A model generated the notes under the pieces. It saw only the letters and a list, made by a program, of their open reading frames with translations, did no database searches and was not told where the DNA came from. The translations under genes and the position numbers were made by a program. Positions 18,648 to 62,372 of a DNA stretch of 64,000 nt are shown here, in pieces. Every line of letters begins with the position of its first letter. Position 1 is the first letter of the stretch. The DNA is from an uncultured Clostridia bacterium. GTDB taxonomy: Bacteria > Bacillota > Clostridia > Christensenellales > UBA1242. The stretch lies in NCBI GenBank assembly GCA_944350115.1, contig CALVNZ010000001.1, positions 93,378 to 157,377 on the forward strand. The letters are read 5' to 3'.

Positions 18648-18675
18648 TTATCCCTTTCATTGATGATAAATTAAC

Positions 18676-18704
18676 TTGCAAATAAAAACGCAACATGATA
18701 TAAT
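18676..18704 (+). promoter_or_regulatory. Sigma-A-type promoter with extended -10, driving the repeat array and tRNA-Leu
   Basis: TTGCAA (18676-18681), 17-nt spacer, TGaTATAAT (18696-18704). Confidence 0.6.
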
Positions 18705-18792
18705 TTACTAGTTTTTGATTAAACAAATTGCGCATTAAATCCGAAGGCTATAAGCAAGATTTTAGTCAAAACAACTTCGCAAAGCAAACTCC

Positions 18793-19239
18793 TTTTATGT
18801 GGCATATTGTAAGTTTATTTTTAACAAGCGGCGCGTCAGCGACATTTGATTAAAAATAAACGAAACAACAGCGCATAAAACACAAAGCCAAAGGCTTTGA
18901 AAGCGGAGCTTTGTTGTAAGTTCATCTTCGCAAAATCAAATTAGTTTTATGTGGCATATTGCAAGTTTGTTTTTAACAAGCGGCGCGTCAGCGACATTTG
19001 ATTAAAAATAAACGAAGCAACAGCGCATAAAACACAAAGCCAAAGGCTTTGAAAGCGGAGCTTTGTTGTAAGTTCATCTTCGCAAAATCAACTTTGTTTT
19101 ATGTGGCATATTGTAAGTTTATTTTTAACAAGCGACGCGTCAGCGACATTTGATTAAAAATAAACGAAACAACAGCGCATAAAACACAAAGCCAAAGGCT
19201 TTGAAAGCGGAGCTTTGTTTTGAGCAAGCTCAAAACGTG
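18793..19239 (+). repeat. Three tandem copies (152, 152 and 143 nt) of a hairpin-forming non-coding unit, candidate structured RNA
   Basis: Units start at 18793, 18945 and 19097 and differ at only a handful of positions (three inside the hairpin between units 1 and 2, plus the tail). Each folds on paper into a ~90-nt hairpin plus the short hairpin caaagcc-aaa-ggctttg. One compensatory pair change separates units 1 and 2. Confidence 0.85.
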
Positions 19240-19245
19240 TTTTAT

Positions 19246-19328
19246 GCGGCTATGGCGGAACTGGCAGACGCGCTGGATTTAGGTTCCAGTGGGAAACCGT
19301 GGAGGTTCAAATCCTCTTAGCCGCACCA
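19246..19328 (+). tRNA. tRNA-Leu (anticodon UAG), CCA encoded
   Basis: Acceptor GCGGCTA/TAGCCGC. Anticodon arm CTGGA-TTTAGGT-TCCAG. Long variable arm. T-arm GGAGGTTCAAATCCTCT. Confidence 0.9.
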
Positions 19329-19348
19329 AAACAAAAAAAAATTTAAAA

Positions 19349-19551
19349 GCTGGATTTACTGCAAGCGAAATTTTGCAAAGCGACACGAAAGTGGCATTTA
19401 TGCAAAATAAGTGAAGCAGCATCAAGAAAACACTGGACCGAAAAGGCCAAAATGCCATGCATTTGATTTTGAAGAATTCAAAAAAGTGTTTTCGCAGATA
19501 TGTTCCAGTGGGAAACCGTGGAGGTTCAAATCCTCTTAGCCGCACCAAAAA
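19349..19551 (+). pseudogene. Partial second tRNA-Leu copy: 10-nt anticodon-stem fragment, 143-nt insert, then the 3' 46 nt including CCA
   Basis: 19349-19358 (gctggattta) equals 19272-19281. 19502-19551 equals 19283-19332 (50/50). There is no acceptor 5' strand or D-arm. Confidence 0.8.
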
Positions 19552-19583
19552 ACATTCTCCTTTTGCTTGAGAATGTTTTTTTA
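19551..19583 (+). terminator. Rho-independent terminator closing the tRNA-Leu transcription unit
   Basis: aacattctc / gagaatgtt 9-bp stem followed by a 7-T run. Confidence 0.7.
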
Positions 19584-19908
19584 TATTATTTTAAATTCGC
19601 AAATTTAAAGGTCTGAACATATCATGTTTTAGGATTTTTTATGAAAAAATTTTTTTATAGCAATCATTGTCAAAGTTTTCCTAAAGATTTAATTTTAAAA
19701 GAAAAACCATGGTGCAACAAAGAGATAATCAATGTAATAGGTCCAACTTGTCCTAGTGAAGGACCAACTGGAGCAAGTTGATACAGCCCTGCTTTCTGGG
19801 ACCACATCGGGAATTCCATATGATTCTGTAACTGATTTAGAAAATAATAATTCTTCAGCAACAGTCAGCGATCAAAGATAAAAAACGCTCCTAATGGAGC
19901 GTTTTTTG

Positions 19909-24349: not shown

Positions 24350-25075
24350 ATGCCAAATAAAAACAATAAAACTTTTATTTTTGATGAATACAATCTGAAA
24401 ACAAAAACAAAAGGAAAATGGTTTGATCTCGTCCTTGCAAACATGCTTGCTTTGGCATTCACAGCACTTGGATTTTTTACGCCTTTATTAAGCTTAGCTC
24501 TTGCATTTGTTGTGATGTCTTATATGCAAATAGCAGTTTATTACTATGTTTTAAATTCATACAGAGAAATAGAAGTTGATTTTTCTAACATTTCCCCGCC
24601 TTTTAAGAGTGTGCTTAAAATTTTGTGCATTAAAATAATCGCTCTTTCGGGCATGTTTTTATGGGGTTTATTATTAATTGTGCCAGGCGTCATTTATGGT
24701 CTTAATTGTGCTTACGCAGGATTAATATTTATTGATGATCCAAAACTTACAATAAAACAAATTTTCGCAAAATCAAAAGAGTTGGTTGTTGGAAAAAGAA
24801 TTATGATTTTACTTGTAGCTTTAATAGGCTTGATTATAATTTGTGCGGCCGCTTCCATCGGTGTTGGCATAAATTTTCTTTTTAATTTGGCATTTACTGT
24901 TCCGACAGCTTTGACGGCTGTTTTGATAATTTTACCAATTATAATAGCCTTTATTACAGCGTCAGCTCCACTTTTTCAATTTTATTTGGTTGCAACTTAT
25001 GATCAATCTCAAAATAAAAGCTTAATTCAAAAAAAATCTAAAAACGTTTCAAAATCAAAAAAAGATGTGATATAA
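24350..25075 (+). CDS. DUF975-like polytopic membrane protein
   Basis: Short cytosolic N-terminus with a K.KGKW motif followed by 5-6 TM helices, then a Lys-rich tail. Confidence 0.45.
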   Translation: MPNKNNKTFIFDEYNLKTKTKGKWFDLVLANMLALAFTALGFFTPLLSLALAFVVMSYMQIAVYYYVLNSYREIEVDFSNISPPFKSVLKILCIKIIALSGMFLWGLLLIVPGVIYGLNCAYAGLIFIDDPKLTIKQIFAKSKELVVGKRIMILLVALIGLIIICAAASIGVGINFLFNLAFTVPTALTAVLIILPIIIAFITASAPLFQFYLVATYDQSQNKSLIQKKSKNVSKSKKDVI

Positions 25076-25101
25076 TCTTCTTATAAAAAAGGAGAAAAAC
25101 T

Positions 25102-25662
25102 TTGGATAAAGAAGATTTTGTAACAAAAGCTGATGCTTTTCAAGGTTTCACACAACTTCGAAGCATAATGAACGATTGCATTGAAAATCCGGAAAATTAT
25201 GCCAAGTCTTTTCTTGACATGTTTGCAGAAGTGGGTTCACTTGCTATGGAAGGCAACGCAATAGCACAAGATGTTATGAGTTACTACTATAAAGATGGCG
25301 TTAAAGGTTTTGTGCCACAAAATTACGATTTGTATATGCAATGGGCAATTTTAGCTGCTGCAAATGGCAATGAATTTACTATCGAAAAACTACAATTCTT
25401 TTTAAATTATGCTTTTGAAGAAATTGTTGATAACGATAAATTACAACAAATTTTAGAAAAAAACGATATAGATGAAAAAAATTATGTTTTCGTTCTTGGA
25501 AATCTTTTATGCGAAGGAATTGTTGACGAACTCCAAATAACAGCAAAAAAACTTGTTGAAACTCAAAATAAAGAGTCCTTATACACTCCAGAAAAATTGC
25601 GATCATATAGAAGAGCTCTCGACAAAGCCTTGCCAAAGGTTTTAGATTACCTGTTAGTTTAA
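25102..25662 (+). CDS. Sel1-like repeat protein (hypothetical)
   Basis: EGNAIAQDVMSYYYKDGVKGFVPQNYDLYMQWAILAAANGN fits the Sel1 repeat consensus. TTG start lies after RBS aaggag. Confidence 0.45.
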   Translation: MDKEDFVTKADAFQGFTQLRSIMNDCIENPENYAKSFLDMFAEVGSLAMEGNAIAQDVMSYYYKDGVKGFVPQNYDLYMQWAILAAANGNEFTIEKLQFFLNYAFEEIVDNDKLQQILEKNDIDEKNYVFVLGNLLCEGIVDELQITAKKLVETQNKESLYTPEKLRSYRRALDKALPKVLDYLLV

Positions 25663-26133
25663 ATTATTTAAACTAACCGTCATAACGTCACCTATCTCAA
25701 ATAAATCAGCTGAAAGTCTCATTCTTTGAAAAATTAAGCCGACGAGAAATTCATACTCGTCGCTTTTTTGTGCTAATAAAAAGAGTTTAATCAAAAGCCT
25801 ATTTTCAAGACTAATTGCATTTAAAAAACATTTCGTTTTATTCCAATTTACTTTAAAACCCCTGTTTTGTTTATATGAAAACTTACTGCGCAACAAATCA
25901 ATTTGCTCTTCATTTAAGCTATAAAATTTATCGCAACCCATAAAGTTCCCTATCGCCCTATAAGAAGCACGAAGTTTAAACATCAAATCGAAAACTTCAT
26001 CAATAAGAATGTTGACACCTTCATTATCTAAACGAACAAAAATGAATCCTTTTTCTTTTAACGAATCTGAATAGGCTTTTGCTAAAACCTCATATTCATC
26101 TGGAGTAGGACAAACAAAATCGTCATATTCCAT
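25654..26133 (-). CDS. Hypothetical 159-aa protein immediately downstream of the T4CP gene
   Basis: RBS agaggtg. No recognisable motif. Confidence 0.5.
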   Translation of the reverse strand: MEYDDFVCPTPDEYEVLAKAYSDSLKEKGFIFVRLDNEGVNILIDEVFDLMFKLRASYRAIGNFMGCDKFYSLNEEQIDLLRSKFSYKQNRGFKVNWNKTKCFLNAISLENRLLIKLFLLAQKSDEYEFLVGLIFQRMRLSADLFEIGDVMTVSLNNLN

Positions 26134-26219: not shown

Positions 26220-28205
26220 TTACCAATTAACTCTGCCAGTAACCATAGAATTTCTTCTATCAATATCATAGAAAACTCTGTTTTCATCCAAAGAATTGCC
26301 AAATCTTGGCGCAGTGATTGGTGGATATTTTGTCATTTGGCTTGTTTTGTACCATGGCATTGGTTTTATTTTTAATGGGTTGTATCTAAAAATCTTTACA
26401 ATTCCTGTTCCAAATGGTAAAAGTGAAAGTTCATAAGGGTCAACCAGTGGTCTTGTAACTCTTTGTTGAGAAGTTGAAAGAGATGTTGAACTTTCCTTTC
26501 CTTTATTTTCAGTTTTTGATTCTTCTTTTGTCACCAATTGAATTTCACCACAACTCTTTGAAAAAGCTTCTCTTGTGTTTGGATCTTCCGTTCCCAAGAA
26601 AACTTGAATGTTGAAATTGCTTTTTAAAGTTTCAGCAACTTCTTTGCCATATTTAGTGTCAAGCTGTGTGAAAGATTGAATAACAATTTCAAATATGATG
26701 TTTCTTGAACGAGCAACAGTCACCATGGTTCCAAAATCTTGAATAACCGGCAAGTTGCCAAACTCATCAAGCAAGAAATAAACGTGCCTTGGCAATTTTT
26801 GTTTTGGGTATTTATTGGCAATGTCAACAAGCGATCTATAAAGCTGTGCGATGCAAATGGTTGCAAGTGGATGACGTTCTTTTTTATGATCAGGGATTTT
26901 AATAAAGAAAGCTGTTGGTCTGTCAATGAATTCATTAAATTTTATGTCTGAACCAGAAGTTGCATAACAAATACCCATATCGCTCATCAAACTGTTAATC
27001 TTTCCAGACAAAACTGAAAGATATGATTTTGTTGTAGAAGGTGCTGAATTGACAATAGGCAAAGTCATAATGGAAACGTCAGAAGTTTTGGCTCTTCCCA
27101 TACAAAATCTTTTTAGAGGCCCAAAAGGATTTTCTGGATCGTTTGGATCCTTTTTGTTTGCAATTTTATAAAGATTGTAAAAATTGTATTGATCTTCTCT
27201 TAATTTATTTTCGCCTAATCTCGCATCGACACTATCTTCAAGCATAGCGATCATAATTCCATACAAAAAGTCTTGTGCCCCTTGCTCCCACATGGTGTCT
27301 TGCGTGCCTTGTGAAACTGGACATAACGATGAAGCCACCCCTTTTAAATCAAATGTCGCATCATTAATAAGCTGTTGTTTTTTTGTTTCTAATTGTCTTT
27401 TCAAAGATTCTTCATCTGGGAAAGCAACCCCATCGAACTCAAACCAAACATCACCATATTCAGCATTTGCCATGCGTTCTTTGCCCGCTTGTTCAGGAGT
27501 GCAGTTTTGATATTTTTTAGCTTCTTTATACAAATTTAATGCCCTGTGATATGTCTTGAAAGGTTTCTCCATAGGGTTCCATCTTGATGATGAATATGGA
27601 TTGTCAAGGTCATAAACGCGAACATCATAACCTTCTTCTTGAAGCGCTTTTGCGTGGTTGTTGTAAAGCTCGCCTTTTGGGTCTGCAATAACCATTGATG
27701 GTTTTTCAGCAGAATGGGCAAAAATTCTAATAGTTGGCTCCAAAATCATGGTGGTTTTACCAGTTCCTGTTGTTCCGATGATCAGTGAGTGTGTTTCATC
27801 TTTCATGGATATTTCATATCTTGAACCAACATTTTCGTTACGAAAAACCATGCCTGTGTTTTTTAAAGAAGGCAAACTGCTCCAAGTTGTGTTAATCAAA
27901 AATTTGTCTTGTAATATTTTTTCTCTAGTTAAAAACCCTGCGTCGAAATGCAAATCGAATTCTTGCCCTTGTGCCGTTTTCCCTTTTTTTTGTAAACCTT
28001 TCTCTTTTTTAGGTCTAAAATAAAAAGCAAGCAACACGCCTGAAATTGCACCAATTCCCAAACCAATGAGCGCGGCATCGCCTTTTAGTAAATCCGTTGA
28101 CCAAGTTGTGTCATTTAAAGCATAACCTGCACCTATTCCAATTCCGTAACCAATTAGTAAAAAAACGACTACATAAATAAGTAAGTTAACTAAAAATTTT
28201 TTCAT
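26220..28205 (-). CDS. Type IV secretion coupling protein (TraG/VirD4/TraD family ATPase)
   Basis: Two N-terminal TM helices. Walker A GTTGTGKTT, Walker B FLLDEFGNLP. Size is 661 aa. Confidence 0.8.
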   Translation of the reverse strand: MKKFLVNLLIYVVVFLLIGYGIGIGAGYALNDTTWSTDLLKGDAALIGLGIGAISGVLLAFYFRPKKEKGLQKKGKTAQGQEFDLHFDAGFLTREKILQDKFLINTTWSSLPSLKNTGMVFRNENVGSRYEISMKDETHSLIIGTTGTGKTTMILEPTIRIFAHSAEKPSMVIADPKGELYNNHAKALQEEGYDVRVYDLDNPYSSSRWNPMEKPFKTYHRALNLYKEAKKYQNCTPEQAGKERMANAEYGDVWFEFDGVAFPDEESLKRQLETKKQQLINDATFDLKGVASSLCPVSQGTQDTMWEQGAQDFLYGIMIAMLEDSVDARLGENKLREDQYNFYNLYKIANKKDPNDPENPFGPLKRFCMGRAKTSDVSIMTLPIVNSAPSTTKSYLSVLSGKINSLMSDMGICYATSGSDIKFNEFIDRPTAFFIKIPDHKKERHPLATICIAQLYRSLVDIANKYPKQKLPRHVYFLLDEFGNLPVIQDFGTMVTVARSRNIIFEIVIQSFTQLDTKYGKEVAETLKSNFNIQVFLGTEDPNTREAFSKSCGEIQLVTKEESKTENKGKESSTSLSTSQQRVTRPLVDPYELSLLPFGTGIVKIFRYNPLKIKPMPWYKTSQMTKYPPITAPRFGNSLDENRVFYDIDRRNSMVTGRVNW

Positions 28206-28595: not shown

Positions 28596-28670
28596 GCTCT
28601 CGTGGTGTAATGGATAGCACAATGGTCTTCGGAACCATTAGTTCGGGTTCGAGTCCTGACGGGAGCACCA
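28596..28670 (+). tRNA. tRNA-Arg (anticodon UCG), CCA encoded
   Basis: Acceptor GCTCTCG/CGGGAGC. Anticodon arm ATGGT-CTTCGGA-ACCAT. T-arm TCGGGTTCGAGTCCTGA. Confidence 0.85.
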
Positions 28671-34425: not shown

Positions 34426-35139
34426 TTACTTTATACCACGACACAAATTTGGGTCTTTTGTTTCATTTGAAGTATCATTAACATTTTCACTAAACAATTT
34501 TTCTTCAGCAAGTTTAAAAAATTGTGAAAAATCTGCTATGCAATCTTTTTTAGACGCTCTTGTCCTTGCAATATCTAAAACTGTTTGTTCTTCATTCGTT
34601 TTAATTGTTAAAAGGTCTGGATTTATCTCTAACGCTTTGATTAGAACTTCAGAAAGGTCTTCTTCTGCTGCTGTATGCAAGATGGTTTCGCCGTTCCAAT
34701 TTTTCTCTTTCGCAAGTTCTGGATCAACTTCTAATGCTTCAATTAACACTTCGAACAGGCCTTGCCGTGCAGCTATGTGCAAGAAGGTTTTGCCATCTTC
34801 ATCTTTCTCTCTTGCAAGTTCTGGATCAACTTCTAATGCTTTTATTAACACATCAGAAAAACCTTCCCATGCAACATCATGCAAGAAGGTTTCTCCCCGG
34901 ATATTTTTCTCTCTTGCAAGATTTTTATATTTTTCTACTACCAAACACAAAAAGGCTGTCATGCCGTTTGAAATCGCCAGATCAATCAATGTTTCCCCAT
35001 CACAAGATTTCATTTTTAGCAATTCTTCATCTTTACTACCTTTTGCATCCAACTCTGAAAAATAGTTGATTAAGTATTTCTCTGCTTTTTCGTCGTCTCC
35101 GTCAATTAACTTTTTAGTTTTATCAACAAAGTTTTCCAT
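34426..35139 (-). CDS. Ankyrin-repeat protein (about 5 ANK repeats, no signal peptide)
   Basis: Repeated G(E/K)T(F/I)LH.AA..G...V(L)I.AL motifs, each preceded by PELA(R/K)EK(D/N)..G. Good RBS aaaggag. Confidence 0.85.
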   Translation of the reverse strand: MENFVDKTKKLIDGDDEKAEKYLINYFSELDAKGSKDEELLKMKSCDGETLIDLAISNGMTAFLCLVVEKYKNLAREKNIRGETFLHDVAWEGFSDVLIKALEVDPELAREKDEDGKTFLHIAARQGLFEVLIEALEVDPELAKEKNWNGETILHTAAEEDLSEVLIKALEINPDLLTIKTNEEQTVLDIARTRASKKDCIADFSQFFKLAEEKLFSENVNDTSNETKDPNLCRGIK

Positions 35140-61616: not shown

Positions 61617-62372
61617 TTACCACCCCCATTCTCCAATCTCTTTTATACTTTTTGCTTGTTTCTCCTCGCTTTGTCTAATTAGTTCTTTCACGCCACTTCG
61701 CATTCTTTCATCAACTTCTTGGCCAATTTGCTCTAGTTTTTCATCAAACGCCATTTGCACTTCTTCTGGCACTCCTGATTTATCATATCCACTTTCTTTA
61801 CAAAGCTCGGCAAAACGCATTGTTGTTCTTCCCTTTATAAGATCTAATAAATATCGTCTCGCCTCGTTGTTTACAAAAACATCGGAAGGAAGTTCGCTTG
61901 ACTTTATTTTTCCTGCACCATATAAAATTAATGCTTCTCTCGCATTTTCTGAAATTTCCAAAATTTGTTCTGGGATAGCGGCTTTCTGTTCTTCTGTTAA
62001 ATCCCTCAAATCTCCACCCTTAGCCACATATTGATTAATAGCTTCTTGTGGAATAGCGGCTATCTGTTCTTCTGTGAAATAACCCAATCTGCCACCATTA
62101 GCTGCACGTTTATTAATAACTTCTTGTGGGATAGCGGCTATCTGTTCTTCTGTTAAATAAACCAATCTGCCACCATTAGCTGCACGTTTATTAATAACTT
62201 CTTGTGGGATAGCGGCTCTCTGTTCTTTTGTTAAATCTAACAAGCTTCCACCATTAGCTACACGTTTATTAATAACTTCTTGTGGGATAGCGGCTCTCTG
62301 TTCTTTTGTTAAATCTAACAAGCTTCCACCATTCTCCACATATTTTTCCAAATCTTCTTGTGTTATTTTCAT
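61617..62372 (-). CDS. Cytoplasmic protein with five tandem 26-aa repeats (NGG.L..LT.EQ.AAIPQEVINKR) and a helical C-terminal domain
   Basis: RBS aaggggg. Repeats are read directly from the translation. No signal peptide and no family recognised. Confidence 0.7.
   Translation of the reverse strand: MKITQEDLEKYVENGGSLLDLTKEQRAAIPQEVINKRVANGGSLLDLTKEQRAAIPQEVINKRAANGGRLVYLTEEQIAAIPQEVINKRAANGGRLGYFTEEQIAAIPQEAINQYVAKGGDLRDLTEEQKAAIPEQILEISENAREALILYGAGKIKSSELPSDVFVNNEARRYLLDLIKGRTTMRFAELCKESGYDKSGVPEEVQMAFDEKLEQIGQEVDERMRSGVKELIRQSEEKQAKSIKEIGEWGW
61960..62345. repeat. 78-bp tandem DNA repeat, about 5 copies, inside the CDS
   Basis: cttcttgtgg recurs at 62042, 62120, 62198 and 62276 (period 78). 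A degenerate copy lies near 61964. Neighbouring copies are nearly identical. Confidence 0.85.

What the first reader, a model, noticed from the sequence alone, without database searches (positions are those of the whole stretch)
18793..19239. Three tandem 152-nt hairpin repeats co-transcribed with tRNA-Leu(UAG), with a compensatory base-pair change
Layout: a consensus promoter (18676-18704) is followed by units starting at 18793, 18945 and 19097. The period is exactly 152 nt; the third unit is 143 nt and runs directly into the tRNA-Leu leader. No terminator occurs until 19551.

Fold: on paper each unit forms a ~90-nt hairpin. The lower stem is gttttatgtgg / gcgcataaaac. The upper 12-bp stem is gtttatttttaa / ttaaaaataaac. 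The loop is the 25-nt, relatively GC-rich caagcggcgcgtcagcgacatttga. A second hairpin caaagcc-aaa-ggctttg follows.

Covariation: only three substitutions separate unit 1 from unit 2 inside the hairpin. Two of them are the partners of one predicted pair (T18810-A18865 becomes C18962-G19017). The third changes an A-T pair to a G-T wobble (A18817 to G18969, partner T18857). This suggests selection on RNA structure rather than a neutral DNA repeat.

tRNA resemblance: each unit begins with gttttatgNggc, matching the leader plus first nucleotides of the tRNA at 12 of 13 positions.

I do not recognise it as any known RNA family (not CRISPR, T-box or 6S-like), but that recognition is by eye only.
Basis: seen in the sequence. 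Interest (0 to 1): 0.7.

Follow-up and report, generated by a model that had tools for sequence, protein, structure and literature searches.

The report
Tandem structured RNA units before tRNA-Leu
Between a promoter and a leucine tRNA gene, an uncultured gut-type Clostridia bacterium carries two or three tandem copies of a roughly 150-base module that folds into a long hairpin; a related species keeps the module with base-pair-preserving changes, so it is probably a new small structured RNA made together with the tRNA, with unknown function.

Summary
Three units of period 152 nt lie between a near-consensus promoter (18676-18704) and tRNA-Leu(UAG) (19246-19328). Each unit folds into a 92-nt rod-like hairpin (HP1) followed by two small hairpins. 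No Rfam family, phage record or plasmid record matches.

New evidence:
- Strains of the same species carry 2 or 3 units.
- A second species (L034; CysRS 85% aa, third codon positions 55% identical) has 2 units of period 138 at the same place. HP1 and HP2 are 85-94% identical between species. The spacers and the 5' leader are only about 50% identical.
- Six HP1 pairs change on both sides, and two pairs are deleted together. Unpaired bases are almost invariant.
- The unit start changes in step with the tRNA leader.
- Some strains have a diverged unit plus a copy of the tRNA 3' half after the tRNA.

Best reading: a lineage-restricted structured RNA module, tandemly duplicated in the 5' spacer of the tRNA-Leu precursor and probably released during tRNA maturation. 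Co-transcription, processing and function are inferred, not shown. Rivals are a cis-acting attenuator, a neutral repeat expansion and an 18-codon ORF.

Interest is moderate: a new variant of tRNA-operon spacer RNAs.

The parts
18676..18704 (+). Sigma-70-type promoter, TTGCAA-17 nt-TATAAT with an extended -10 TG. It is the only promoter-like site upstream of the array and the tRNA.
   Evidence: Conserved in all strains. L020 carries a 60-nt tandem duplication of it.
18705..18791 (+). 5' leader before the first unit. It is not conserved between species. Its last ~17 nt (from 18775) are a partial copy of the unit spacer (CTTCGCAAAG...).
   Evidence: (48% identity to L034).
18792..18943 (+). Unit 1. 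HP1 rod-like hairpin 18792-18883, HP2 18883-18899, HP3 18900-12, variable single-stranded spacer 18913-18943.
   Evidence: (CM 110.7 bits).
18944..19095 (+). Unit 2. HP1 18944-19035 (the C-G / G-U variant), HP2 19035-19051, HP3 19052-19064, spacer 19065-19095.
   Evidence: (113.4 bits).
19096..19216 (+). Unit 3. HP1 19096-19187, HP2 19187-19203, HP3 19204-19216. The spacer is replaced by the hairpin before the tRNA.
   Evidence: (115.3 bits).
19216..19237 (+). Hairpin before the tRNA, GUUUUGAGC-loop-GCUCAAAAC, followed by UGUUUUAU. It is terminator-like: either a leaky terminator or a processing element. The stem is conserved in L034.
   Evidence: (L034 6747-6769).
19239..19250 (+). tRNA leader plus the first 5 nt of the tRNA (GTTTTATGCGGC). 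It copies the start of each unit and evolves in step with it; L034 lacks AT both here and in its units.
19246..19328 (+). tRNA-Leu, anticodon UAG, with encoded CCA. It is identical in L034.
19329..19498 (+). Strain-variable insertion after the tRNA. It holds a diverged copy of a unit (HP1' 19349-19433, an HP2-like hairpin and a TTCGCA tail), enclosed by anticodon-stem-like GCUGGA...UCCAG.
   Evidence: 72% over 58 nt; 54 bits. Present in the window, L014 and L023; absent in L019-L021.
19499..19550 (+). Direct repeat of the tRNA-Leu 3' half, 51 of 52 identical to 19280-19331.
   Evidence: partial tRNA hit, 20.7 bits.
19547..19582 (+). Intrinsic terminator of the transcription unit: a 13-bp stem followed by a U run.

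Best explanation
The array consists of tandemly duplicated, structurally constrained RNA modules in the 5' external transcribed spacer of the tRNA-Leu(UAG) gene. One promoter drives a precursor made of a leader, 2-3 units (HP1-HP2-HP3 plus spacer), a hairpin and tRNA-Leu, with a diverged unit and a terminator following in some strains.

Shown here:
- the repeat;
- the fold and its covariation;
- mosaic conservation across two species;
- copy-number polymorphism;
- concerted evolution with the tRNA 5' flank.

Inferred:
- The units are transcribed on the + strand together with the tRNA, or as a leaky-terminated RNA with read-through into it.
- Cuts in the poorly conserved single-stranded spacers, plus RNase P at the tRNA 5' end, release stable rod-like RNAs of about 90-125 nt.
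- Their nearly invariant internal loops and apical region are recognised by a protein or RNA partner in trans, with dose set by unit number.

Units multiply and shrink by unequal crossing-over between the repeated GUUUU(AU)GYGGC starts. The last of these starts is the tRNA's own leader and 5' end.
For: - Repeat and fold.
- Layout: there is a single promoter, and no other promoter-like site lies in the array on either strand. The order terminator, promoter, units, hairpin, tRNA, terminator is the same in L034.
- Selection: L034 differs from the window at 22% of CysRS nucleotides and 45% of third codon positions. Yet HP1 is 85% identical, HP2 94% and the hairpin before the tRNA 86%. The spacer is only 50% identical and the 5' leader 48%. 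This mosaic argues against both neutrality and recent transfer of the whole locus.
- Covariation: 6 pairs change on both sides, there is a paired 2-bp co-deletion, and wobble intermediates occur. Only 0-1 of 500 shuffles reach these values. Between species, 1 of 24 unpaired HP1 columns changes against 12 of 68 paired positions (my count).
- Strand: 28 G-U cells at 6 pairs on the + strand would be A-C mismatches on the - strand, against 2 of the opposite kind. The covariance model scores 105-115 bits on + and 28-40 on -. The unit energy is -48 on + and -36 on -. The promoter, tRNA and terminators are all on +.
- Dose and turnover: strains carry 2 or 3 units.
- Position: a diverged unit also sits 3' of the tRNA. 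The module is therefore tied to the tRNA transcript, not to a fixed 5' position.
- Precedent: RNAs released from tRNA-operon transcripts are known, namely RtT (PMC4986893) and the 3'ETS sponge (cited in PMC9514646).
Against: - There are no expression or processing data.
- Only two species plus strains were found, and within-species units are not independent because of concerted evolution.
- The alignment used was fitted to the model.
- The closest sister species (L004) and the outgroup (L007) have the tRNA without the array, so the array is dispensable.
- HP1 alone folds about equally well on both strands.
- The hairpin at 19216-19237 could terminate most transcripts before the tRNA.
- No target or partner is identified.
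- Copy-number variation and concerted evolution are also what a neutral tandem repeat would show.
Confidence: 0.45

Rival explanations
1. The units are a cis-acting leader. Together with the terminator-like hairpin directly before the tRNA, they set how much tRNA-Leu(UAG) is made or matured. This tRNA decodes rare codons. Control could work through leaky termination, or through competition between the HP1 3' strand and the tRNA leader and acceptor 5' strand.
For: - The terminator-like hairpin plus U-rich tract is conserved in both species.
- CUA and CUG make up only 4.8% and 3.2% of Leu codons.
- The HP1 3' strand GCGCAUAAAAC is fully complementary to the tRNA leader plus G1-G3 (GUUUUAUGCG). 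All three segments lose AU together in L034.
Against: - A cis switch is normally single-copy, whereas here the copy number varies from 2 to 3.
- A diverged unit also lies 3' of the tRNA.
- No alternative (antiterminator) structure or ligand or partner site was identified.
- HP1 forms co-transcriptionally long before the tRNA leader emerges.
- Relatives manage with a 20-nt leader.
Confidence: 0.2
2. The array is a neutral or selfish expansion of a structured tRNA leader. A hairpin-containing leader was duplicated by slippage or unequal crossing-over between short repeats, and it is simply removed and degraded during tRNA maturation. The apparent conservation reflects concerted evolution and a need not to interfere with tRNA folding.
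For: - Copy-number polymorphism, and a promoter duplication in L020.
- Loss in L004 and absence in L007.
- The array is restricted to a narrow clade, with no hits elsewhere.
Against: - Conservation between species is mosaic: HP1 and HP2 are far better kept than the spacers and than synonymous sites.
- There are compensatory changes, and the unpaired bases are nearly invariant.
Confidence: 0.18
3. Each unit encodes an 18-residue peptide (MWHIVSLFLTSGASATFD), for example a small toxin or leader peptide. This would resemble the tandem Sib/Ibs or Ldr type I toxin-antitoxin repeats.
For: - An 18-codon frame is open in every unit and in L034, where it has a TTG start (LRHIASTFLTSGASATFD).
- The C-terminal 11 residues are unchanged, with 3 synonymous differences.
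Against: - Neither species has a Shine-Dalgarno sequence.
- The start codon is buried in the HP1 base stem.
- An open frame of 18 codons is expected by chance about a quarter of the time at this composition (my estimate).
- Two of the three 'synonymous' changes are the two sides of one RNA pair.
- Overall there are about 6 synonymous and 7-8 non-synonymous changes.
- The peptide is not hydrophobic.
- There is no antisense promoter.
- The frame is broken in the diverged copy.
Confidence: 0.04
4. The repeat acts at the DNA level, or is a relic: a MITE-like or integrative-element remnant, decayed tRNA-Leu gene copies, or protein-binding iterons, with no RNA role.
For: - The tRNA-Leu locus is a rearrangement hotspot. 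The tRNA 3' half is duplicated over 52 nt, with a strain-variable 219-nt insertion.
- L004 has tRNA-like fragments in its leader and an island after the tRNA.
- The ends of the units resemble the ends of the tRNA.
- HP1 is an inverted repeat that folds on either strand.
Against: - The units are tandem, not dispersed. The covariance model finds no other copy in the 64-kb window or in about 130 kb of related loci.
- No integrase or transposase is nearby.
- ARAGORN and the Rfam tRNA model do not see the units as tRNA-like.
- The G-U pattern is asymmetric towards the + strand.
Confidence: 0.06

Closest known systems
RtT RNA (Rfam RtT family) and the tandem repeats of the E. coli tyrT operon
   Same: [quoted passage not shown] From my own knowledge, it derives from roughly 178-bp tandem repeats linked to the tRNA gene. 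The shared features are therefore tandem, unit-sized, structured, non-tRNA RNA made with a tRNA.
   Different: RtT lies downstream of the tRNA in Enterobacteria and Pasteurellaceae. Here the units lie upstream, in Clostridia. There is no sequence or structure match to the Rfam model. The fold differs: a 92-nt rod-like hairpin.
3' external transcribed spacer of glyW-cysT-leuZ (3'ETS-leuZ) and other functional tRNA spacers
   Same: A spacer of a tRNA precursor survives processing and acts in trans as a sponge for sRNAs (Lalaouna et al. 2015, as cited in PMC9514646). This is the same logic as the proposed mechanism.
   Different: It is single-copy, short, Hfq-dependent and on the 3' side, in E. 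coli. No base-pairing partner is known here. The units are repeated and much more structured.
tRNA-linked polycistronic small RNAs processed by tRNA enzymes (MHV68 tRNA-miRNA TMERs; plant tRNA-snoRNA genes)
   Same: Hairpin RNAs are physically linked to a tRNA or tRNA-like element and are freed by RNase P or RNase Z (my own knowledge).
   Different: These are eukaryotic or viral, transcribed by Pol III, with the hairpins downstream of the tRNA-like part. There is no homology.
Type III antitoxin arrays (ToxI) and CRISPR arrays
   Same: Tandem repeated RNA units are transcribed as one precursor and cut into unit-length RNAs.
   Different: ToxI repeats are about 36 nt and sit directly upstream of a toxN-type gene. 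CRISPR repeats are 23-47 nt and alternate with unique spacers near cas genes. Neither condition holds here.
Sib/Ibs and Ldr tandem type I toxin-antitoxin repeats
   Same: Units of about 150 nt, sometimes in tandem, each with an 18-19-codon ORF.
   Different: Ibs peptides are strongly hydrophobic, have ribosome binding sites and face an antisense RNA with its own promoter. None of this is seen here.
Correia-type MITEs
   Same: About 150 nt with long inverted repeats. When transcribed they form RNase III-sensitive hairpins.
   Different: MITEs are dispersed, with terminal inverted repeats and target-site duplications. These units are strictly tandem at one locus.

Membership tests
Any Rfam 15 family (including RtT, T-box, 6S, tRNA, group I intron) | Match to the family covariance model at or near its gathering score | tested here: not met
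   Only the true tRNAs pass the gathering score. At E<=10 nothing credible overlaps the units in the window, nor in L034 at E<=1.
tRNA-operon spacer-derived RNA (RtT / 3'ETS type) | Lies inside the transcription unit of a tRNA gene, between its promoter and terminator | tested here: met
   Promoter at 18676-18704, units, tRNA at 19246-19328, terminator at 19547-19582. No other promoter-like site lies in between. L034 has the same layout. These are consensus matches, not mapped transcript ends.
tRNA-operon spacer-derived RNA (RtT / 3'ETS type) | Released as a discrete stable RNA by tRNA processing enzymes | not testable with these tools
   This needs RNA-seq, Northern blots or in vitro RNase P, III or Y assays.
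tRNA-operon spacer-derived RNA (RtT / 3'ETS type) | Acts in trans on a partner RNA or protein | not testable with these tools
   No partner is identified. The GGA loop of HP3, a possible CsrA site, is not conserved in L034.
CRISPR array | Short (23-47 nt) repeats alternating with unique spacers, usually near cas genes | tested here: not met
   The period is 152 nt and the whole unit, including its 'spacer', is repeated at 95%. The flanking genes scanned against Pfam show no cas domain.
Type III toxin-antitoxin (ToxIN-like) | Tandem short RNA repeats directly upstream of an endoribonuclease toxin gene | tested here: not met
   The next gene is tRNA-Leu. The nearest protein genes are a 46-aa ORF, a YjzC-like ORF and a zeta-toxin-family kinase.
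Type I toxin-antitoxin repeat (Sib/Ibs-like) | Translated hydrophobic small ORF plus an antisense RNA with its own promoter | tested here: not met
   The ORF is present. It has no SD, the peptide is not hydrophobic, and no minus-strand promoter is found. Translation itself was not tested.
MITE / dispersed repeat | Many dispersed copies with terminal inverted repeats and target-site duplications | tested here: inconclusive
   No other copy is found in the 64-kb window or in related loci. The whole genome was not available.
tRNA gene or pseudogene | Cloverleaf recognised by tRNA models | tested here: not met
   ARAGORN and Rfam tRNA find only the real tRNA and the 3'-half copy at 19494-19544. 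Only the ends of the units resemble the ends of the tRNA.
Integrated element at a tRNA (attL/attR) | Direct repeats of the tRNA 3' part flanking an island that carries an integrase | tested here: inconclusive
   A 52-nt direct repeat is present, but only 167 nt lie between the copies and there is no integrase. Presence varies between strains. This concerns the 3' insertion, not the array.

The most novel reading that the evidence does not exclude
The units are a previously undescribed class of bacterial regulatory RNA that rides on a tRNA gene. They would be rod-like hairpins whose base helix copies the pre-tRNA leader and acceptor end, so that the tRNA maturation machinery excises them. They would be amplified or lost by unequal crossing-over with the tRNA's own 5' end, giving strain-specific dosage of a trans-acting RNA. 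They might originally derive from tRNA-Leu gene copies invaded by a hairpin element.
Probability: 0.25. Interest if true: 0.7.

Novelty: new variant of a known kind. Interest (0 to 1): 0.5.

Why it matters
Functional RNAs hidden in the spacers of tRNA precursors are known from only a few cases, almost all in E. coli. This locus offers a structurally well-defined, repeat-amplified example in uncultured Clostridia, and it has natural copy-number variants (2 or 3 units, with or without a 3' copy). That makes three questions directly testable:
- whether tRNA leaders can host independent, dosage-tunable small RNAs;
- how such modules arise, by duplication against the tRNA's own 5' end;
- whether they modulate supply of a rare-codon tRNA.

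If it proves to be only a tolerated repeat, it is still a clean example of concerted evolution and structure-preserving drift in a tRNA leader.

Tried and rejected
- **Rfam:** searched at gathering score and at E<=10, with nothing found.
- **BLAST:** blastn of the array against phage and plasmid collections gave no match.
- **Genome pattern scan:** a loop 20-mer scanned against GTDB genomes gave 3 hits in high-GC Planctomycetes, Verrucomicrobia and Rhodospirillaceae MAGs. I judge these to be chance matches.
- **Metagenome and viral scans:** two JGI metagenome scans were run. The loop pattern gave 0 hits. The base-stem pattern with a gap gave 10 hits; none scores with the covariance model (no match at E<=1) and their own predicted folds show no HP1-like hairpin. 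Six viral-contig scans all gave 0 hits.
- **FMN-reductase homologues:** the 68-73% homologues (L008, L009, L017, L018) lie in a different gene context without the tRNA.
- **L004 leader:** the full covariance model with filters off found no unit homology.
- **CsrA-sponge idea:** the GGA triloop in HP3 is not conserved in L034.
- **T-box idea:** there is no CUA specifier and no Rfam hit.
- **K-turn idea:** the AA/GAA internal loop lacks the tandem G-A arrangement.
- **Pairing with the tRNA:** 9-nt complementarity between the HP1 apex and the tRNA D/anticodon region is broken by the unit 3 variant and absent from the diverged copy.
- **Strand by energy:** folding energy of HP1 alone does not discriminate between the strands.
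- **Peptide reading:** considered and kept only as a weak rival.
- **Taxonomic naming:** only 'Clostridia bacterium' at 66% CysRS identity.
Full report
**1. Observation**

- **The repeat.** The window holds one strong tandem repeat at 18775-19219: period 152, 2.9 copies, 95% identity, no indels, score 813. The repeat finder puts the copies at 18781-18932, 18933-19084 and 19085-19236. The core motifs occur three times, against 0-0.15 expected by chance.
- **The flanks.** ARAGORN and Rfam place tRNA-Leu (anticodon UAG) at 19246-19328. A near-consensus promoter (TTGCAA, 17 nt, TG-n-TATAAT) sits at 18676-18704. It lies just after the terminator of an FMN-reductase gene.
- **The fold.**
  - HP1 is 92 nt. 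It has a 10-bp base stem (GUUUUAUGUG / CGCAUAAAAC), a 5x3 internal loop, a 4-bp stem, a 2x3 loop and a 12+4-bp A/U-rich stem. It ends in a small G+C-rich apical stem-loop.
  - HP2 is CAAAGCC-AAA-GGCUUUG.
  - HP3 is AAAGC-GGA-GCUUU.
  - About 30 nt of unstructured spacer follow.
- **The substitutions.** One is a double change in one pair; one turns A-U into G-U.
- **Corrections.**
  - Unit 1 begins with C.
  - A terminator-like hairpin plus UGUUUUAU lies at 19216-19237, directly before the tRNA.
  - The unit 2 variant is shared by several strains, so it counts as one event.

**2. Context and source**

The window is part of an ENA metagenome scaffold; L001 is identical to it. The neighbouring genes are housekeeping: RecD2, a MarR-like protein, CysRS and FMN reductase upstream; a 46-aa ORF, a YjzC-like ORF, a zeta-toxin-family kinase, an APH-family kinase and GlmS downstream. 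The nearest named CysRS homologue, at 66%, is from a 'Clostridia bacterium'. A relative carries Spo0A nearby. The host is therefore an uncultured Clostridia lineage with about 33% G+C.

**3. Strains of the same species**

- **Contig breaks.** Several short-read contigs end inside the array (L002, L003, L015, L016), as expected for a tandem repeat.
- **Copy number.** Contigs that span the locus show two units in L019, L020, L021 and L023, against three in the window.
- **Promoter.** L020 also has a 60-nt tandem duplication of the promoter.
- **Informative unit variants.**
  - L021 unit 2 has U-G at the pair that is U-A or C-G elsewhere. This is the wobble intermediate.
  - Four distinct unit sequences have U-G instead of C-G in the apical stem.
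  - One unit has an A-C mismatch, and one has a 1-nt deletion in the upper stem.

**4. Other species**

- **Relationships.** CysRS and RecD2 identities give the order ((window, L004), L034), L007.
- **L034.** CysRS is 85% identical at the amino-acid level, 78% at the nucleotide level, and only 55% at third codon positions.
  - Two tandem units of period 138 lie between an extended -10 promoter-like site and an identical tRNA-Leu(UAG). The same hairpin precedes the tRNA.
  - The covariance model built from the window's units scores these two units at 88 and 92 bits.
- **L004.** It keeps the tRNA, but with an unrelated leader of about 190 nt and an inserted gene. No unit is detectable even with filters off.
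- **L007.** The promoter sits about 20 nt before the tRNA.
- **Inference.** The array is older than the window/L034 split and was lost or replaced in L004. It is therefore conserved but dispensable.

**5. Evidence for selection on an RNA structure**

- **Mosaic conservation.** Window-to-L034 identity is 85% for HP1, 94% for HP2 and 86% for the hairpin before the tRNA. It is 50% for HP3 plus spacer and 48% for the 5' leader. This pattern fits neither neutral drift nor a recent transfer of the whole locus.
- **Pair counts.** These come from 12 distinct sequences: the units from both species plus the diverged copy.
  - 96.7% of cells are standard pairs.
  - 6 pairs change on both sides.
  - 0-1 of 500 shuffles reach these values.
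  - Slid-partner controls give 1-3 such pairs.
- **Paired deletion.** L034 lacks an A-U and a U-A pair of the base stem on both strands. It also turns a U-G into C-G.
- **Loops against stems.** Between species only 1 of 24 unpaired HP1 columns differs, against 12 of 68 paired positions (my count). Stems drift with compensation while loops stay fixed, which is the usual signature of a functional structured RNA.
- **Caveats.** There are few independent lineages. Units within a species evolve in concert. The alignment was fitted to the model, although the MAFFT alignment gives the same direction.

**6. Strand**

- The hairpin is an inverted repeat and folds on both strands.
- 28 G-U cells at 6 pairs would be A-C mismatches on the minus strand. 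Only 2 cells go the other way.
- The model scores 105-115 bits on the plus strand and 28-40 on the minus strand.
- The full unit is 12 kcal/mol more stable on the plus strand.
- The promoter, tRNA and terminators are all on the plus strand, and no minus-strand promoter is seen.
- The RNA is most likely the plus-strand transcript.

**7. Relation to the tRNA**

- **Shared start.** Each unit starts with GUUUUAUGUGGC-AUAU-G. The tRNA leader plus 5' end reads GUUUUAUGCGGC-UAU-G.
- **Change in step.** In L034 both the units and the tRNA leader lack the AU (GUUUUGCGGC). L004 and L007, which lack the array, also lack this leader. The tRNA start is therefore the last, partial repeat of the array.
- **Mechanism.** Unequal crossing-over between these starts explains how units are gained and lost, and why they evolve in concert.
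- **Not tRNA-like.** The units are not recognised by tRNA models.

**8. A diverged unit after the tRNA**

- **The insertion.** In the window, L014 and L023, 219 nt follow the tRNA: 167 nt plus a copy of the tRNA 3' half that matches at 51 of 52 positions (19499-19550). L019-L021 and L034 lack this and have a different terminator.
- **Its content.** The 167 nt contain a diverged copy of a unit. HP1' lies at 19349-19433: 72% identity over 58 nt, and 54 bits with the model, though it was in the seed alignment. An HP2-like hairpin and a TTCGCA tail follow.
- **Extra covariation.** HP1' adds further compensating changes (U-A to C-G, and G-C to A-U) and a G.A to A.G swap.
- **Enclosing stem.** The copy is enclosed by GCUGGA...UCCAG, which is the anticodon stem.
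- **Reading.** The simplest explanation is a decayed or foreign second 'unit plus tRNA-Leu' module recombined at the tRNA. This shows that diverged relatives of the module exist. It also shows that the module is tied to the tRNA transcript rather than to one side of the tRNA.

**9. Mechanism**

- **Shown.** The repeat, the fold, the covariation, the mosaic conservation, the copy-number polymorphism and the concerted evolution with the tRNA 5' flank.
- **Inferred.**
  - One precursor runs from the single promoter.
  - Units of about 90-125 nt are released by cuts in the variable spacers and by RNase P at the tRNA.
  - A trans partner recognises the invariant loops and apex.
- **The hairpin at 19216-19237.** It may be a leaky terminator. 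In that case the array would be mainly a separate RNA, with read-through supplying a tRNA that reads rare codons. CUA is 4.8% and CUG 3.2% of Leu codons.
- **Rivals.**
  - A cis-acting attenuator or maturation control.
  - A tolerated neutral repeat.
  - An 18-codon ORF. It stays open in both species, but it has no ribosome binding site, its start codon is buried in the stem, and its 'synonymous' changes are explained by RNA pairing.
  - DNA-level or relic explanations.

**10. Comparison with known systems**

- **Closest in kind.** These are RNAs released from tRNA-operon transcripts.
  - RtT comes from tyrT and other operons (PMC4986893). From my own knowledge, it arises from tandem 178-bp repeats.
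  - The 3'ETS sponge is the other case (Lalaouna 2015, cited in PMC9514646).
- **Membership.** The units do not match the Rfam RtT model or any other family. They lie upstream of the tRNA and have a different fold. They work like these RNAs at most and are not members.
- **Excluded.** CRISPR arrays, ToxI-type arrays, Sib/Ibs repeats and T-box leaders fail their defining features. MITEs remain untested at whole-genome level (see the membership table).

**11. Verdict**

This is a real, structurally constrained RNA module, restricted to one lineage, tandemly duplicated in a tRNA-Leu leader, and not described in Rfam. Its function is unknown. It is a new variant of tRNA-spacer-derived RNAs. Interest is moderate (0.5), because the phylogenetic range found is narrow and there are no expression data.

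Noticed in passing
window 19280-19331 and 19499-19550, with the 167 nt between them: The tRNA-Leu 3' half is duplicated as a 52-nt direct repeat, att-like, with only 167 nt between the copies and no integrase. The 219-nt insertion is present in some strains (window, L014, L023) and absent in others (L019-L021), which also have a different terminator.
   Followed up: yes
L020 4215-4340 (equivalent to window 18652-18711): One strain carries a 60-nt tandem duplication of the promoter region, giving two promoters in series before the array.
   Followed up: partly
L004 6486-6672 and 6874-10597: In the sister species the tRNA-Leu leader (about 190 nt) contains fragments resembling tRNA-Leu itself (ACAGACGCGCGGATTTTAG, and the palindrome GTTCCAGTGGCCACTGGAAC) plus a 13-bp A/T hairpin. 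An island with an HNH protein, an M78 peptidase and a type I restriction-modification system follows the tRNA. Logan contigs of relatives (L006, L007) break exactly in the anticodon loop.
   Followed up: partly
window 19641-19781 (+): A 46-aa ORF (MKKFFYSNHCQSFPKDLILKEKPWCNKEIINVIGPTCPSEGPTGAS) ends in collagen-like G-P-T triplets. Other strains (L019, L020, L021, L023) have extra GGTCCAACA repeats, so its length varies between strains.
   Followed up: partly
window 61971-62333: Tandem repeat of period 78, 4.7 copies, 90% identity. Its period is a multiple of three, so it may be a repeat within a protein-coding gene.
   Followed up: no
window 34675-34920: Tandem repeat of period 102, about 2.2 copies, 80% identity. 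It lies inside overlapping ORFs on both strands.
   Followed up: no
window 26220-28205 (-), next to tRNA-Arg at 28596-28670: A type IV secretion coupling protein gene (TraG/VirD4 family). Its three nearest scanned neighbours (24350-26133) have no Pfam match and no other conjugation domain was seen among the ORFs scanned, so it may be a remnant of an integrative conjugative element.
   Followed up: no
window 18883-18899, 19035-19051, 19187-19203 (- strand): Read on the minus strand, each HP2 followed by the HP1 base strand (UGUUUUAUGC) scores as an intrinsic terminator, in both species. This is probably a by-product of the A/U-rich base stem. It would nevertheless block antisense transcription through the array.
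   Followed up: partly
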